NCBI RefSeq assembly: GCF_003704095.1
Contig: NW_020846609.1
Location: forward strand, 1-64,000
Direction of reading: 5' to 3'
From: Pocillopora damicornis
Lineage: Eukaryota
Length of the DNA stretch: 64,000 bases
Shown here: one piece after another, positions 41,601 to 47,600 of the stretch
Layout: each line of letters opens with the position of its first letter
Numbering within the stretch: the first letter of the stretch is position 1
Program-made: the position numbers

Positions 41601-44600
41601 TTCATGATCGTAGCACTTATTCAGTTGACTCTTCACTATATAAATGGAAAAGAGGAAGATTTGAAAAATACCAGAACTTTCCAACACATGGAGGAGTGGC
41701 TTGTGATTCAATTGTGATCGCTAACGACACATATCTTGTCTTCGCCAACCAACGTAGCCCCCAGGGAAACCATGACGCGGAATCTACCGTATATAAGTGG
41801 TCAGGAGGTCACTTTCTAAAGTTTCAAACAATGAAAGCCCGCGGTTCTTTTAGTACCAAGTTCTTTCAAGTTGGTGACCATGTCTTTCTCGGATTCGCAA
41901 GTTCTCGCAGCACAAAATCACCTCTCTTTAAATGGGATGGCTCAAAATTTACCTTGTTTCAAGATATTCCAACTCGTTTCGCCATGGAGCTATGCCTGTT
42001 TGAAGTGAATGGTGACGTGTTCCTCGCTGTTGCCAATTATAACGAAGGCAAATCATTTGTGTACAAAGCTTCTGGCGCACAGTTCACTCACTACCAAGAT
42101 TTGGAAACACAGGGTGCTCGAGGAGTGCACGCCTTCGTTCATGAAGGCGAGAAATACCTTGTGTTTGCTAATTACTGGAAAAACAAAAAATACAACATCG
42201 ATAGCTTTGTCTATAAGTTTGTGTAAACTTTGCTGAGAAATCCTATTGACTTTACTGCATGGGTAAAACGACCCAACAAGCGTCATATCGTAAATTTGAC
42301 GATATAAAAAAATCCTTCGGATGAGCATGTTCTAACTACCCAATTTTTTTTCATCTGACTAGCTCTGAAACTTAAGATAACAGGATTAGATGATTGATTG
42401 ATTGAGTGATTGGTAAGTTACCATTCGACTGACTGACTGACTGACTGTTTTTCGCCTAGGTGCGCAATTGACAAAAGTCCTAGCCAGGCCAGTCAGTCTC
42501 TCGTAACTAGAGGTCTTAATGGCAAGTCCTAGGCTTCGGGGAAAGTATTTCTCAATTCTCGTGAAATGGAAAAGCGAAGCATAGATTATGCTAAGTAGTT
42601 AGATCTATTTATCGACAATTATTGGCTTATCAAGAAAGTGATACGACTGTAACGAAAGAGCCTTACTGACGTCGTTCGTTTAACTGTAGTCATTTTGTGA
42701 TGCCCTCAGAGGGTGAAAAGTTCAAAATTTAAAAATTAGCATGCCGTTTTTCCTTGTAACCTCACAAGAATGTCGTCAATGTTGAGTTAACAATTAGAGA
42801 TTGTTCCATTGAATTTCTAAAAAAACAATTTCCCAAATGTTTGGAATAGAACACATCCAGTTTCAATTTCTTAAATTATCTGAAGGGGAGATTACATTGC
42901 CCACATGATATCTCCATGATGTTTTAGGCGAACCTTCCACTCTTAGCCACAAGTAATAGTCCTCCGTATTAGCCAAAATCACAGAAACCCTTTTTTTAAA
43001 ATTAATACTTGGGGGATAATGTTACACAATAATTGGATTTCTGGTCATTTTCTCATTTTGCACATCCCCTTTCACTAAGAAGCGCGTCAAGTCTGTTTGG
43101 TATTAATCAGCTTTTAAAGAATTATTATGACAGATCGATCAACGCTGTTGAACCTATGGACGCAATCGCAAGGTAAAATGAAGACAATTGCGGTACTAAT
43201 TTTATTGAGGTATTTTAATTGTGGGTTTCAATCTTAAAAAAAGAAGGCTAAGACGCATTTTTCATTAACGATTTTACTTAAACGAGCGAGTCCCTCGACC
43301 ACTTTCTTGGACAGCATTACAAATGTATTATCTTGTTTTGGCTTTCCTTTTTCCCTGGGAAACTGGAAGAAACTACTCTGCGTCTGCAAATCAGGCTGAC
43401 CTTGATACTCAGCTTTGACTAATAAGCTGTTCGCGTATTTTTCTCGCGATTTGCTTGGTGACGTAAAGAGCTTACAAAAAAGGTTCTATGAAATGTTTGC
43501 TCTAAATCGTACAAAAAAATAAGAAATTAGAAAGAACTGAAGTCAAAATATACCCCACGTAGTGCAAGTTTGCTGACTTTTCAGAAATCATTGCAAATTT
43601 AAATTAAGGATTTTATGAACTTTCCTACGGTTTCTCTGTTATTTTCTTTCACTTCTTAGCTGTTCAATGTTCTAAACGCCAAACGATCGTCAGTAAGATG
43701 ATATGCAGTCACAATAGTAAAATGCCGTCAGGCGAATACCTTCAAGGTCTGGCTATTAATTTCTACCCCGAAGAAAGTTGAGCTGGTCCTACTTAGTATC
43801 ATAAGTTTCGAGAAGAAAAGTGTTAATGATACGACTTAAATAACGAAAGAGAGGCATCCTGCCTTTGATGACGTGAGACTACTCCATATTGGCGAATCCT
43901 TCACCAGCCTTCTAGTGCCGAGACCCCCTCTGCGAAGCCGGCCTTGGATGGATGTGTACAGCCAAGCATTTTCCTGCCGTCCTTAACCGTAAGAGCCGCT
44001 CCATTTCCAGCCATTTCCTCAGTGGTCTGAGAATCCACCTCGGACACGGGTTGTCCGAACTCGGTAACGTCCATCAAGACATGATCTTCGATGGTAAACT
44101 TTTCCACTTGAATATCCTGCTGGAAAGAATGAGGACTCGGAGTCAGAAATGTTGGAGCTTCCAGAGCTGCCTTAGGATTCATTCCACTGTCCAAAATGTT
44201 TGTTAAATACTGCGGAATAACAAATGATTGAGAGGGACCGGTGGAAGTCAGAACTAACACAGGCACCAAGGGGCCAGAGTGCAGCATAGAGGTGGCTTCT
44301 CTGTCCGGAAGACTCCCTGATTTCCACATGTCGGGAATTCCAAGATGCGGAAATTCTTTGACTTCTTTGTTAAAGCCGTCCTTCTCTTGAGACTCTTCGC
44401 CTTCAGTTTCCCGTCCTCTTTCTTCTATGATTTCCTCATCCTTATCGCTTTCTTCTCTCTCCTCCTTTTCCTTTTCAGTTTCTTCCCTTTCTTCCCCTCC
44501 CTGGCTGATCTTAGGAATTGCATTGATATCAGAATCTTCTTCTTCGTTGGGGTGAGGACGATGTAATCTAAGATGTGGTTTCTCAAACTCCTCGAGTTCT

Positions 44601-47600
44601 TCAGTTGGTGGAACGTTTGGCTCATTATGCATTGGCGACTTCAATTTATCATTGACCTCCATGGGTAGATCTGTTCTCTCTCTTTCATAATTTGGTTCAT
44701 TGGAATTGGAAGGTATCTCGTTGGTTCGGAAATTAGAATCAACATCTGGATATTCTTTTTCTTCAAGTTCATCTACAGGCTCCTCTTCCCGTCCAAACTG
44801 ATAACGTTTTTCTGACTTGTCTCCTTGCGATTGATGGAACAATTGAGATCTGACTTTATTGTACGTTTTGAAAACCACTAGTTTTTGTGGCTCTTCTCCC
44901 CAGTTCTTCTGGAGGTTTGAGAAACCTTTCCTCCTAGAGGCAAGTCGCTTTTTGTTCTTCGTTGCTGCAGAAATGTCTCGTCTGAGCCTTCTGCCAAATT
45001 CATCGACTTGCCGAGTTTCCTTTTTAAAGATAATCACAGGCTGGAATCCCGACGTTATTCTTCCACCATTATTGGTCTTCTTTACTTGCGTCTTCAATGC
45101 AATTCCAGAGCTGGGGAGACTTACTCCATGCACAAACAAGCCTGTTCCCCAAGCGTCACCATCGGTGCCATGCGAGAGGGAGCAAACGTTGCCAGCACTG
45201 TCCACTGCGACTACGCCAGACGAACCGCGCCGATGTTGTTCCATGTCCATCTCAACACTTGCCAGCAATTCTCGCATGACGTCGTTGACATCTTTCATCT
45301 TCTCAAATGAGGCGATTTTGTCCCATAGCTCCTCAGCAGAGTCCTTTGTTTTCCGATAAGAGTAATCGGCAGTTATTCCAAGATGATCTTTGAGCAGTTG
45401 TTTTCCATTAGGAACTTCTCGTGCGAAAAAGGTAACAAACGAACTAAGACGTGTTATGGAAGCTAGCCAGAACAGTTTTGTGGCGTTTGTAAGGTAAGAG
45501 TCGGTTGATTCTCCGATTCCTGCCAATTGCATTAAATTTAACTTTTCAACCAGCTCAGCGCCTCCCAATTCCGCACCTGTCGTTACCACGTGATGCTTTT
45601 GGTACAAGGTGCTTGTGGGCTCAGGTGACGTCACCTTATACTGAGTCATGTCTTCCATCGTAATGTAGCCTTCGTGACGTTGAACCGTCTCAACCATTTC
45701 TTCAGCCCAGGGACCACGGTAGAAGTATTCCTTTCCATATCTGGAGAGGCGTTTAAGAAATTTTCCCAACTTAAGTTGCCTGAATCGTTCGCCAGCTCTG
45801 TAGACTTTCTTTGTTTTGGGGTTAGTGAAAGTATTTTTTCCTATAAAGCAAGAAATGGCAGTCATTATAAACCGACTATAAAGGTTGTACTACAGGAGGG
45901 GGGCATTGGGGCCTATTAGAAACCGCAAAACCGTAGAAAAAATTATCCANNNNNNNNNNNNNNNNNNNNNNNNNNNNNNNNNNNNNNNNNNNNNNNNNNN
46001 NNNNNNNNNNNNNNNNNNNNNNNNNNNNNNNNNNNNNNNNNNNNNNNNNAATAGCCAAAACAGCAAAAATCGAAAATCCCAATGCCCCCCTCCTACAGGA
46101 CAGGACATCAATATAAGTTGTGATTGACCTTCTCTCTTTTTGTTCTTTTCTTTTCAAAGATAATTTACAAGACATCAGTTTACTTTAAACTTGTAAAGTT
46201 TTACAAAAAAGTCCTAGTTTTTAGATGCAGGTACAATTTGAAGCTGTGAGTATTTGGGCTCCCTACTTTGTCAGCCTCAATTCAACCGATGAAAAAATTC
46301 TTGCACATGAAGATACAGCCTGGATATGCACGTCCTGTTCCTTGCTCAAATGAATTACGAACAAAACTGTAAATAGCTTAAAACGTCTTACCAAGGTAAG
46401 GGTCCTCCTCTTTTTGGTATCTTATTTATGAAAGGTCACTTGACCGCTTAAGTACACCGTTCACTAAGGGAGGAACAACTAGATCCTCTCGCCTGTACAA
46501 ATCGCTTCAAACCAAACGCCATACCTTCCTTGGTGCGCAGGAGGCCTCTCTGGTTATAGTTTTTCCTCATCTCCTCTGCCAGGTCAGAAGGGAGTTTGAA
46601 TCCTCTGGTGGCAAAGTACAACGCCGGTTGCAACAGTTTAGACAGCGGAAATAAACCAAACTTCTCTGAGGCCGTAGAGACGCCTGCGACGAGACCTGGC
46701 ACTAGAACGGCGGCTCCGTTACCGAGCTCGGAATGATGTTCAGGAATCTGAGCAGGGTCTACGTAGTAAGGCTTGTTCCAGCCTGCATCTAGGTTGTAAG
46801 TGACCCCAGTGGAGCTGTCATAGTACAAAATGTTGGCTGCTCCGGCATAAGACACGTGTGATCCAGCTGCAAGAGTGATCTCTGTAGAAAATGAAACAAT
46901 ATTAAATTGTGGATGAAAACCTGAATCAGAATAAAGCTTGATTACCAACCGCTGTCCAGAAAATGGGCTCGCGCTAGCAGCCTGAAGAGACCGGCATGAT
47001 GGTTACGGGATGATTACGGAATAGCCACGGGTTTGCAGCTATACTCGTCAACGTGTTTACAGTGTGTGAGGAATCAAACCTATGAAAAGTACTGGAAATT
47101 TGATGTCGGTCACTGCTTTGGAATCTTTTCTTTCAACGATGAGACTTAAAAAATAATCAGCTGGTACATTTGGCTTCGAGAAAAATCCGATGATTGGAAA
47201 TGAAAGTTCATCTGTCCTTGCTCATGATCCTAATTAAACTTCAGTTTGATAAGGCAGGCTTTTGACAAATGAACATCGAATGCAAAATATCTGGTGTCCA
47301 CATATACAGCTGTCAAAAGGGATAATGCAAGGAACCATTTTAAACCTCTCAGAAGAGCAGTGAAATTCACTGACAAAGCTTCACATAACAGCAAACGAAA
47401 TTTAGCTTTTGGTGGGAACGAAACCGGGGAGTTGGCTGGTAGATGGAAAAATCAATAACAAAGAACGTTTATCTGTTCGTCACTTGACTGCGTCCGATTT
47501 GTGAGAACTTATGCTCTCCTGCTTCCAGCCATGCTCTGCACATGAAATCTGGTCCTTAATCCGGCAAAATCATCTTGAGTACCGTAATGCTCGAGATAAA

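What the first reader, a model, noticed from the sequence alone, without database searches (positions are those of the whole stretch)
44264..45019. ~250-aa granin/prohormone-like insert inside the GGT small subunit
Seen: a stop-free insert lies between SGFQPVIIFKK and PVLVLTSTGP, which are only a short beta-turn apart in canonical GGT (SSMSPTIVVKDGK..LVTGSPGG). It is first basic (RRLRR, KKR, RRK, KR) and then very Glu/Asp-rich. It contains a furin-type RLRR site and two F-G-R motifs flanked by basic residues: R-QVDEF-G-RR (45010-44987) and KR-YQF-G-R-EEE (44809-44789). Established: X-Gly-basic is the amidation signal, and acidic spacers are typical of cnidarian neuropeptide precursors; acidic tracts are also typical of Ca-binding skeletal-matrix proteins. 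Inference: a secreted enzyme fold that doubles as a peptide precursor, is activated by convertase excision, or carries a mineral-binding loop.
Basis: partly seen in the sequence, partly recalled or inferred. Interest (0 to 1): 0.72.

Follow-up and report, generated by a model that had tools for sequence, protein, structure and literature searches.

The report
Charged disordered loop in coral GGT
A stony-coral gene for a secreted, bacterial-type relative of gamma-glutamyltranspeptidase carries a translated 250-residue, mostly disordered, basic-then-acidic loop in one surface hairpin; it has a few conserved short motifs, including a convertase-type cleavage site, and does not look like a hormone precursor.

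Summary
Window 45019..44264 (minus strand) is a stop-free 252-codon segment inside the 1.94-kb last exon of a three-exon GGT-like gene. It splits a hairpin that is 5 residues long in most insert-less relatives.

The segment is coding. None of 20000 shuffles stayed stop-free. It is present in all 39 scleractinian-type sequences compared. Orthologues keep it on short contigs that carry the whole spliced CDS.

AlphaFold gives a confident GGT core and a mostly low-confidence insert. Sequence conservation is half that of the core (0.36 against 0.73). Four islands and the charge layout (first 60 residues positive, the rest negative) are conserved.

The R-X-[KR]-R site at the insert's start is present in 39 of 39. 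The first F-G-R-R is present in 36 of 39. The second F-G-R is at its aligned column in only 4 of 38, and close variants have Glu there. Dibasic sites are no more frequent than chance. The insert has no Pfam match and no stand-alone homologue.

The prohormone reading is therefore not supported. Convertase opening of the loop is plausible but inferred. A mineral-binding role is untested. Nematostella has a 612-residue basic insert at the same hairpin.

Verdict: a new variant of a known enzyme family, of modest interest.

The parts
50816..51110 (-). Exon 1 of the GGT-like gene. It holds the ATG at 51110, a hydrophobic signal-peptide-like N-terminus, and the start of the GGT domain.
   Evidence: tblastn of P0007 and P0026. 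Sequence with a GT donor after 50816. Kyte-Doolittle 11-residue means reach 2.45 over residues 4-15. No signal-peptide predictor was run.
46525..46881 (-). Exon 2, part of the GGT large-subunit region.
   Evidence: tblastn. AG acceptor before 46881 and GT donor after 46525. Pfam PF01019 on the enclosing ORF, E 1.3e-10.
43901..45840 (-). Exon 3, the last exon with the stop codon included. It holds the rest of the large-subunit region, the nucleophile, the insert, and the C-terminal small-subunit region.
   Evidence: AG acceptor before 45840. ORF. PF01019 E 7e-29. tblastn.
45221..45223 (-). Serine at the Ntn nucleophile column (ORF residue 215), where canonical GGT has Thr.
   Evidence: The profile alignment to the B. 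licheniformis T399A precursor puts this column on residue 399. Ser in 39 of 39 scleractinian-type sequences. Ser 113, Thr 26, Ala 1 among 140 relatives.
44264..45019 (-). The 252-residue insert (ORF residues 283-534) in the hairpin between the two strands.
44840..45019 (-). Basic block: first 60 residues of the insert, net +11.
   Evidence: Net +6 to +17 in 38 orthologues. Low-confidence helix in both models.
44978..44998 (-). Island 1, F-G-R-R-L-R-R. The R-X-[KR]-R convertase-type site ends at 44978.
   Evidence: R-X-[KR]-R in 39 of 39 and G-[KR]-[KR] in 36 of 39.
44846..44890 (-). Island 2, P-Q-K-L-V-V-x-x-T-x-N-x-V-R-S.
   Evidence: Present in 38 of 39. Predicted as a strand with block pLDDT 58-78 in the model of the window's exon-3 product. 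Below pLDDT 50 and without secondary structure in the full-length orthologue model.
44789..44809 (-). Second K-R-Y-Q-F-G-R motif. It is not conserved.
   Evidence: x-G-R at the aligned column in 4 of 38. Glu for Gly in P0001 and P0052. G-H in P0060.
44264..44839 (-). Acidic, Glu-rich block: insert residues 61-252, net -31.
   Evidence: Mostly pLDDT below 50.
44582..44602 (-). Island 3, E-E-L-E-E-F-E, moderately conserved. Its unit occurs once here and three times in the Stylophora orthologue.
   Evidence: Unit counts.
44324..44359 (-). Island 4, K-E-F-P-H-L-G-I-P-D-x-W, the most conserved stretch of the insert.
   Evidence: Core pattern in 39 of 39, and a mean share of 0.89 identical to the window. 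pLDDT below 50 in both models.
45164..45172 (-). H-G-T. Gly sits at the column that aligns with the helper Thr of canonical GGT (B. licheniformis Thr417).
   Evidence: Gly in 39 of 39 scleractinian-type sequences, against Thr or Ser in 100 of 100 short-loop relatives. The column mapping is read from the alignment. The residue's role is taken from passages of PMC6769717.
44231..44239 (-). G-P-S directly after the insert, at or next to the oxyanion-hole glycines of canonical GGT.
   Evidence: Pro in 38 of 39, against none among the five commonest residues in 100 short-loop relatives. differ by one residue in the mapping, so the effect is uncertain.

Best explanation
The insert is a translated, lineage-specific expansion of one surface beta-hairpin in the small-subunit half of a secreted, divergent GGT-superfamily protein. 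This protein has Ser, not Thr, at the nucleophile column, and its nearest insert-less relatives are bacterial.

The loop is largely intrinsically disordered and charge-segregated. About 60 basic residues, which may hold a helix and a strand, are followed by about 190 Glu-rich acidic residues. Most of it evolves fast by substitution, indels and unit duplication. Four short islands and the charge layout are held by selection.

The most likely mechanism is inferred, not shown. In the secretory pathway a furin-like proprotein convertase would cut after R-R-L-R-R at the N-terminal edge of the loop and open the hairpin. The acidic tail with the E-F-P-H-L-G-I-P motif would stay attached to the C-terminal fragment as a docking or regulatory appendage.

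Shown here: coding status, position, disorder prediction, motif conservation and distribution. Inferred: secretion, cleavage, and any regulatory or docking role.
For: The segment is coding and exonic.
- 0 of 20000 shuffles were stop-free.
- The three exons have GT/AG junctions, and the insert lies inside exon 3.
- Full-length CDSs with exons 1-3 contiguous and the insert present sit on contigs of 2.9-3.6 kb: P0065 (941 aa on 3627 nt), P0026 (849 aa on 2902 nt) and P0017 (816 aa on 3038 nt). In the window the same span is 7.2 kb of genome.
- Every length variant examined within 90%-identity clusters differs only at the N-terminal ORF start.

Position. Searches place it in the hairpin. Foldseek's best match to the orthologue model is the E. 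coli GGT precursor 2e0w_A, with TM 0.86 on the target.

Disorder.
- In the P0007 model the core is at pLDDT above 90 and residues 527-704 are below 50.
- In the model of the window's exon-3 product most of the insert is below 50.

Conservation.
- The mean share of residues identical to the window is 0.36 in the insert, 0.73 before it and 0.69 after it.
- R-X-[KR]-R occurs in 39 of 39, the E-F-P-H pattern in 39 of 39 and the Q-K-L-V-V pattern in 38 of 39.
- The first 60 residues carry net +6 to +17 and the rest -8 to -50 in all 38 orthologues.

Relatives with other inserts. Two of four have an R-X-[KR]-R at the C-terminal edge: position 600 of 612 in Nematostella and 325 of 332 in P0117.

Secretion. 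The N-terminus is signal-like.
Against: - No protein-level evidence of cleavage or secretion was available.
- The R-X-[KR]-R lies in a predicted, low-confidence basic helix. Its conservation could reflect that helix, or polyanion binding, and not a cleavage site.
- One such site in a sequence of this composition is not unusual (1251 of 5000 shuffles).
- P0039 and P0040 have long inserts without such a site.
- The two models disagree on island 2: a strand at pLDDT 58-78 in the truncated model, unstructured in the full-length orthologue.
- Transcript evidence comes from orthologues, not from the window's own species.
- The 39 sequences are not independent. The window and P0001 are 98% identical, and P0002 and P0059 share a 90% cluster.
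Confidence: 0.6

Rival explanations
1. Functionless drift. The hairpin tolerates insertions, and the loop is a neutral low-complexity expansion. Its conserved bits only reflect local packing next to the strands.
For: - Insert length ranges from 88 to 616 residues among cnidarian-type relatives, with unrelated sequences.
- P0113, P0115 and P0038 are 44-48% identical to the query yet have loops of 8-19 residues.
- Insert identity is half that of the core.
- The acidic unit has been duplicated in Stylophora.
Against: Islands 2, 3 and 4 lie far from both strands and are kept in 38-39 of 39 sequences. The charge layout is kept in 38 of 38 although the sequence turns over.
Confidence: 0.2
2. Mineral- or matrix-binding loop. 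The acidic block binds calcium carbonate or the organic matrix, making this a skeletal-matrix enzyme of calcifying corals.
For: - The overall acidic version with the four islands was seen only in scleractinian-type sequences.
- The named members are Stylophora, Oculina and Desmophyllum.
- A 'Gamma-glutamyl-transpeptidase' is listed in the Corallium rubrum skeletome (PMC7853314, passage). Whether it belongs to this family was not tested.
Against: - The acidic block is Glu-rich, with median E:D of 3.7. The coral acid-rich proteins I recall are Asp-rich; that is recall, not a call.
- The insertion site is also used in non-calcifying Nematostella.
- No paper text mentions the Stylophora accessions or links GGT with the Stylophora skeleton.
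- Skeletal proteome lists are mostly in supplements, which were closed.
Confidence: 0.12
3. Neuropeptide or prohormone precursor. Convertase cleavage and amidation at the two F-G-R sites release amidated peptides, and the acidic stretches are spacers.
For: - F-G-R-R with a following basic run occurs in 36 of 39 sequences.
- F-G-[KR] occurring twice is rare by shuffle: 14 of 5000, though the pattern was chosen post hoc.
- The N-terminus is signal-like.
Against: - The second site is at its aligned column in 4 of 38 sequences and varies among close variants.
- The Gly of the first site is absent in 3 of 39.
- The N-terminal flank of the would-be peptide varies.
- Dibasic count is at chance.
- There are no peptide repeats, no Pfam family and no stand-alone homologue.
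- The segment is embedded in a folded enzyme.
- No paper text contains the predicted peptide names.
Confidence: 0.05
4. Retained intron or exitron. The stretch is removed from the mature mRNA and the canonical short turn is restored.
For: It lies inside a long exon, and insert-less relatives exist.
Against: - The frame is preserved with 0 stops, and 0 of 20000 shuffles match that.
- Protein-level islands are conserved.
- Spliced full-length orthologue CDSs retain it.
- None of the cluster members examined lacks it.
Confidence: 0.03

Closest known systems
Bacterial gamma-glutamyltranspeptidase (E. coli GGT, PDB 2e0w/2dbu; Bacillus licheniformis GGT, 4y23), Pfam PF01019, MEROPS T03
   Same: Same fold: Foldseek TM 0.86 on 2e0w_A and profile E 4e-95 to 4y23. 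Same domain order. The nucleophile column and the hairpin are in the same place.
   Different: - Ser, not the 'strictly conserved' Thr, at the nucleophile column (PMC6769717 passages).
- NCBIfam equivalog scores are far below cutoff: 89-171 bits against 357.85 for TIGR00066.
- The column of E. coli Arg114 falls in a gap of the alignment.
- Gly at the helper-Thr column and G-P-S near the oxyanion glycines.
- A 250-residue insert in a 5-residue turn.
Insert-less Ser/Thr-type GGT-like proteins of Planctomycetota, Gemmatimonadota, Acidobacteriota and other bacteria (for example loci L001-L080)
   Same: These are the closest insert-less relatives, about 30-35% identical to the coral protein. They mostly have the same Ser nucleophile (78 of 100). 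379 of 408 candidate genome loci were confirmed.
   Different: They have a 5-residue turn and Thr or Ser at the helper column. Their function is not known to me. A 'gamma-glutamyltranspeptidase 1-like' gene is listed as an anthozoan horizontal-transfer candidate with 'unclear' donor in PMC4878875 (passage). Whether it is this gene was not tested.
Nematostella vectensis XP_001638768 / A7RPA1 (P0112, 1225 aa)
   Same: Cnidarian orthologue-level relative, 43% identical over the core, with an insert in the same hairpin.
   Different: Its insert is 612 residues, net +67, pI 10.7, and has none of the four scleractinian islands. It has Ala at the nucleophile column.
Enzymes with an excised internal linker or spacer (heparanase linker; spacer peptides of penicillin and cephalosporin acylases). 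This analogy is recalled, not tested.
   Same: An internal segment of a proenzyme, bounded by a cleavage site, whose processing would yield a multi-chain enzyme.
   Different: In those acylases the spacer precedes the nucleophile and is removed autocatalytically. Here the segment starts 68 residues after the nucleophile, and only one conserved convertase-type site is present. The likely outcome is opening of the loop, not excision.

Membership tests
GGT superfamily (Pfam PF01019, Ntn hydrolase fold) | Significant match to the family profile | tested here: met
   PF01019 E 7e-29 on the exon-3 ORF, 1.3e-10 on the exon-2 ORF, and 4e-52 on orthologue P0007.
GGT superfamily (Pfam PF01019, Ntn hydrolase fold) | GGT fold | tested here: met
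   AF2 model of P0007 with pTM 0.79. Foldseek to 2e0w_A E 3e-26, TM 0.86. This was tested on the orthologue and, for the window itself, on the exon-3 product only.
Canonical gamma-glutamyltranspeptidase / glutathione hydrolase (equivalog) | Thr nucleophile, described as strictly conserved in PMC6769717 passages | tested here: not met
   Ser in 39 of 39. Ser is common in this subfamily: 113 of 140.
Canonical gamma-glutamyltranspeptidase / glutathione hydrolase (equivalog) | Score above the NCBIfam equivalog cutoff | tested here: not met
   TIGR00066 89.4 bits (exon-3 product) and 170.9 bits (P0007) against a cutoff of 357.85. NF007187 41-112 bits against 990.
Canonical gamma-glutamyltranspeptidase / glutathione hydrolase (equivalog) | Substrate and helper residues: Arg114, Thr409, Asn411, Ser462/463 and Gly483/484 in E. 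coli numbering | tested here: inconclusive
   Arg114 falls in an alignment gap. The helper-Thr column is Gly in 39 of 39. The Asn column is Asp in 28 and Asn in 11 of 39. The glycine mapping differs by one residue.
Canonical gamma-glutamyltranspeptidase / glutathione hydrolase (equivalog) | Autoproteolysis into large and small subunits; gamma-glutamyl transfer activity | not testable with these tools
   No protein-level data.
Granin / prohormone / cnidarian neuropeptide precursor | Match to a known precursor family | tested here: not met
   0 Pfam families in the insert at E<=1. No Atlas lead. The only homologue of the insert alone is a fragment of the same gene.
Granin / prohormone / cnidarian neuropeptide precursor | Several peptide copies flanked by processing sites, with enrichment of dibasic sites | tested here: not met
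   Dibasic pairs 7 against 7.17 expected. No repeated peptide. No self-match in the window.
Granin / prohormone / cnidarian neuropeptide precursor | Amidation signals (x-Gly-basic) conserved in orthologues | tested here: inconclusive
   Site 1 in 36 of 39. Site 2 in 4 of 38, and variable among close variants.
Proprotein-convertase substrate | R-X-[KR]-R motif, conserved | tested here: met
   39 of 39 at the insert's N-terminal edge.
Proprotein-convertase substrate | Routing through the secretory pathway | tested here: inconclusive
   Hydrophobic N-terminus in exon 1. No signal-peptide predictor was available.
Proprotein-convertase substrate | Actual cleavage at the site | not testable with these tools
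   Needs mapping of natural protein termini.
Coral skeletal acid-rich matrix proteins | Detected in skeletal proteomes | not testable with these tools
   Text searches found nothing for this protein. Supplements were closed.
Coral skeletal acid-rich matrix proteins | Asp-rich acidic tracts (the feature is recalled, not taken from a call) | tested here: not met
   48 Glu against 15 Asp in the window's insert. Median E:D of 3.7 in 38 orthologues.

The most novel reading that the evidence does not exclude
In stony corals a bacterial-type, Ser-nucleophile GGT-like Ntn hydrolase has been re-tooled. The changes near the active site (H-G-T, G-P-S) arose together with a convertase-opened, charge-block disordered loop. 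The Glu-rich tail and the invariant E-F-P-H-L-G-I-P motif tether or gate the enzyme in the extracellular or calcifying space. This would be an internal pro-segment of a kind not described for this fold.
Probability: 0.15. Interest if true: 0.6.

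Novelty: new variant of a known kind. Interest (0 to 1): 0.33.

Why it matters
If the loop is processed or used for docking, it would show how an enzyme fold, possibly acquired from bacteria, gained a lineage-specific regulatory appendage in hexacorals. It would also give a marker (four motifs plus two active-site changes) that separates the stony-coral form from the sea-anemone form. 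As it stands the finding mainly corrects an over-reading: basic pairs and Gly-Arg in a charged disordered loop are not evidence for a hormone precursor.

Tried and rejected
- Pfam on the insert alone found 0 families.
- The ESM Atlas gave no usable hit.
- A homologue search with the insert alone (proteins of 138-441 aa) gave 1 hit among 317 candidates, a Desmophyllum pertusum fragment of the same gene.
- Tandem Repeats Finder over 43000-52000 found nothing in the insert.
- blastn and tblastn of the insert against the window found only itself, and BLASTP self-comparison of the Stylophora insert found no repeat at E<=0.1.
- The 622, 654, 611, 563, 689, 834, 853 and 941 aa length variants inside clusters were checked as possible splice forms. 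All differ only at the N-terminal ORF start.
- Paper searches for the Stylophora and Nematostella accessions and for the predicted peptide names found nothing relevant.
- The search for related loci with the 118-sequence alignment failed for lack of a conserved stretch. It was repeated with a 12-sequence alignment.
- Five other long ORFs in the window were scanned. Only one had a Pfam match.

Full report
**What the window holds**

I take the window for a stony-coral (scleractinian) genome, not a human one.
- The best database match to the gene's last exon is 98% identical and unnamed (P0001).
- The closest named relatives are Stylophora pistillata XP_022781993.1 (P0059, in the 90% cluster of P0002, which is 74% identical by BLASTP and 84% by the alignment), Oculina patagonica (P0007, 61%) and Desmophyllum pertusum (P0124).
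- tblastn of three orthologues and the junction sequences define a three-exon gene on the minus strand: exon 1 at 51110..50816, exon 2 at 46881..46525, and exon 3 at 45840..43901. All junctions are GT/AG.
- An N run lies inside intron 2. It was not filled or looked up.
- The exons were searched one by one. Full-length questions were answered with natural orthologue proteins instead.

**The observation**

- Between ...SGFQPVIIFKK and PVLVLTSTGP... lie 252 codons (45019..44264). They have no stop in frame and 4-23 stops in the other five frames. None of 20000 shuffles was stop-free.
- The segment carries net +11 in its first 60 residues and -31 in the rest, with 48 Glu and 15 Asp.
- The quoted motifs are at the quoted coordinates.
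- HMMER alignments to the E. coli and B. licheniformis GGT chains put the flanks on the two strands of one hairpin.
- Among 140 compared sequences, 130 have 18 or fewer residues between these strands (5 in most). Only 10 have more than 100.

**The host protein**

- Pfam calls it GGT (PF01019).
- An AlphaFold2 model of the full-length Oculina orthologue, built with a 118-sequence alignment, has pTM 0.79 and a core pLDDT above 90.
- Foldseek's best match is the E. coli GGT precursor 2e0w_A (E 3e-26, TM 0.86 on the target).

It is not a canonical GGT.
- NCBIfam equivalog scores are far below cutoff.
- The nucleophile column holds Ser in 39 of 39 scleractinian-type sequences, and Ser 113, Thr 26, Ala 1 among 140 relatives. 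Passages of PMC6769717 describe the Thr as strictly conserved in GGTs.
- The column of E. coli Arg114 falls in an alignment gap.

The closest insert-less relatives are bacterial. 379 of 408 candidate stretches in the genome collection were confirmed, and the best 80 come from Planctomycetota, Gemmatimonadota, Acidobacteriota and others. That collection holds no eukaryotes, so this is a lead and not a phylogeny. PMC4878875 lists a 'gamma-glutamyltranspeptidase 1-like' gene among anthozoan horizontal-transfer candidates with unclear donor (passages). I could not test whether it is this gene.

Exon 1 starts with a hydrophobic, signal-peptide-like stretch. No predictor was run.

**Is the insert exonic?**

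For the window's species I have only the open frame. For orthologues the evidence is stronger.
- Whole CDSs with exons 1-3 contiguous and the insert present sit on contigs of 2.9-3.6 kb: P0065 (941 aa on 3627 nt), P0026 (849 aa on 2902 nt) and P0017 (816 aa on 3038 nt). The same span is 7.2 kb of genome in the window.
- All length variants I examined inside 90% clusters differ only in where the ORF was started. None lacks the insert.

**Anatomy and conservation**

Counts are on 39 scleractinian-type sequences: the window, P0001-P0037 and P0059. The set has some redundancy, because the window and P0001 are 98% identical and P0002 and P0059 share a cluster. P0038-P0040 and P0118 were left out as different or partial.

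The mean share of residues identical to the window is 0.73 before the insert, 0.36 within it and 0.69 after it (on 36 sequences after also dropping P0001 and P0010).

Four islands stand out.
1. F-G-R-R-L-R-R (44998..44978). R-X-[KR]-R is present in 39 of 39 and G-[KR]-[KR] in 36 of 39. The three without it are P0014, P0017 and P0037.
2. P-Q-K-L-V-V-x-x-T-x-N-x-V-R-S (44890..44846), present in 38 of 39.
3. E-E-L-E-E-F-E (44602..44582), moderately conserved.
4. K-E-F-P-H-L-G-I-P-D-x-W (44359..44324), present in 39 of 39, with a mean share of 0.89.

The charge layout is kept in all 38 orthologues. The first 60 residues carry +6 to +17 and the rest -8 to -50. Median E:D is 3.7.

The Stylophora insert is 330 residues. 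It has three copies of the unit around island 3, against one copy in the window.

**Structure prediction of the insert**

In the full-length Oculina model:
- The basic start is a helix (residues 497-517) at pLDDT 55-65.
- Residues 527-704 are below 50 with no secondary structure.

In a model of the window's own exon-3 product (645 aa, 70-sequence alignment, pTM 0.67):
- Most of the insert is again below 50.
- Island 2 is drawn as a strand with block pLDDT 58-78, followed by a helix.
- This model lacks the first 217 residues of the fold, so that strand may fill a surface that is covered in the real protein. I treat it as unresolved.
- Island 4 is low-confidence in both models.

**The prohormone reading**

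- The second F-G-R is at its aligned column only in the window, P0002, P0003 and P0059 (4 of 38; P0010 has a gap). The regular-expression count of 6 includes two G-[KR] at another column.
- Among the four members of the 98%-identity cluster that I aligned with the window, two (P0001 and P0052) have Glu for the Gly. One of four Stylophora-cluster members (P0060) has G-H.
- The residues before the first F-G-R-R vary: R-Q, R-E, P-E, R-G and P-D.
- Dibasic pairs are at chance (7 against 7.17). F-G-[KR] twice is rare (14 of 5000), but the pattern was chosen after the fact.
- No Pfam family, no Atlas lead, no stand-alone homologue, no repeats, and no paper text with the predicted peptide names.

I rate this reading at about 0.05.

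**The convertase reading**

- The one element kept everywhere is the R-X-[KR]-R at the N-terminal edge.
- Two of four relatives with unrelated long inserts have such a site at the C-terminal edge: Nematostella at 600 of 612 and P0117 at 325 of 332. P0039 and P0040 have none by the strict pattern.
- With a signal-like N-terminus, cutting at one edge of the loop in the secretory pathway is the most economical mechanism.
- It is inference only. The conservation could equally reflect the basic helix itself.
- Only one conserved site exists, so the likely result is opening of the loop and not excision.

**The mineral reading**

- The insertion site is used across hexacorals. Nematostella vectensis XP_001638768 (P0112) has a 612-residue insert there, with net charge +67 and none of the four islands.
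- Other unnamed relatives have inserts of 88-336 residues with different sequences. Three relatives at 44-48% identity have loops of only 8-19 residues.
- The hairpin is therefore a hot spot, and only the acidic four-island version is scleractinian-type.
- That leaves a matrix role possible but untested. Text searches found nothing. The Corallium rubrum skeletome lists a GGT of unknown relation (passage). The proteome tables that could settle it are in supplements that were closed.

**An unplanned finding: changes near the active site**

The scleractinian-type insert co-occurs with two changes near the active site.
- The column that aligns with the helper Thr of B. licheniformis GGT is Gly in 39 of 39. 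It is Thr or Ser in 100 of 100 short-loop relatives and in 4 of 4 other long-insert relatives. The residue is Thr417; the mapping is read and its role from PMC6769717 passages.
- The residue after the conserved Gly next to the oxyanion hole is Pro in 38 of 39. Pro is not among the five commonest residues there in the 100 short-loop relatives.
- differ by one residue in mapping that Gly onto E. coli Gly483/484 (roles from PMC6769717 and PMC3940202 passages). I draw no conclusion on activity from it.
- Nematostella and P0040 have Ala at the nucleophile column. Catalysis may be altered or lost in parts of this clade.

**Verdict**

The feature is a lineage-specific, mostly disordered, charge-block loop with conserved linear motifs in a divergent secreted GGT-like protein. 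That makes it a new variant of a known kind, of modest interest.

**Unchecked**
- RNA-seq of this species.
- The closed metagenome and viral contig collections.
- Paper supplements.

Noticed in passing
window 45164..45172 and 44231..44239 (minus strand): All scleractinian-type sequences have H-G-T (Gly at the column of the helper Thr of canonical GGT), and 38 of 39 have G-P-S beside the oxyanion glycines. All 100 short-loop relatives have Thr or Ser at the first column. The catalytic machinery may have been altered together with the insert.
   Followed up: partly
P0112 (Nematostella vectensis XP_001638768), residues 490-1101: The sea-anemone relative has a 612-residue, strongly basic (net +67) insert in the same hairpin and Ala at the nucleophile column. 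P0040 also has Ala there.
   Followed up: partly
window 41375..42226 (+): A 283-aa ORF with six EPTP (epitempin/EAR) repeats (Pfam PF03736, E 6e-55), about 1.7 kb from the 3' end of the GGT-like gene on the opposite strand, so the two genes converge.
   Followed up: no
window 19427..19822 (-): A 131-aa ORF matching the Cep57 centrosome-localisation domain (PF14073, E 1.7e-17), presumably one exon of a Cep57-like gene.
   Followed up: no
window 48904..48947: An A-rich simple repeat (period 9-20) inside intron 1 of the GGT-like gene.
   Followed up: no
P0059/P0002 (Stylophora-type orthologue) insert: The insert is 330 residues against 252 in the window. The unit around P-T-E-E-x-E-E occurs three times instead of once, so the acidic part grows by unit duplication.
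   Followed up: partly
window 58988..59947 (+) and 60765..61592 (+): Two long ORFs (319 and 275 aa) with no Pfam match. Not examined further.
   Followed up: no
window, intron 2 of the GGT-like gene: One of the window's three N runs lies inside this intron. It does not touch any exon. It was left as it is.
   Followed up: no
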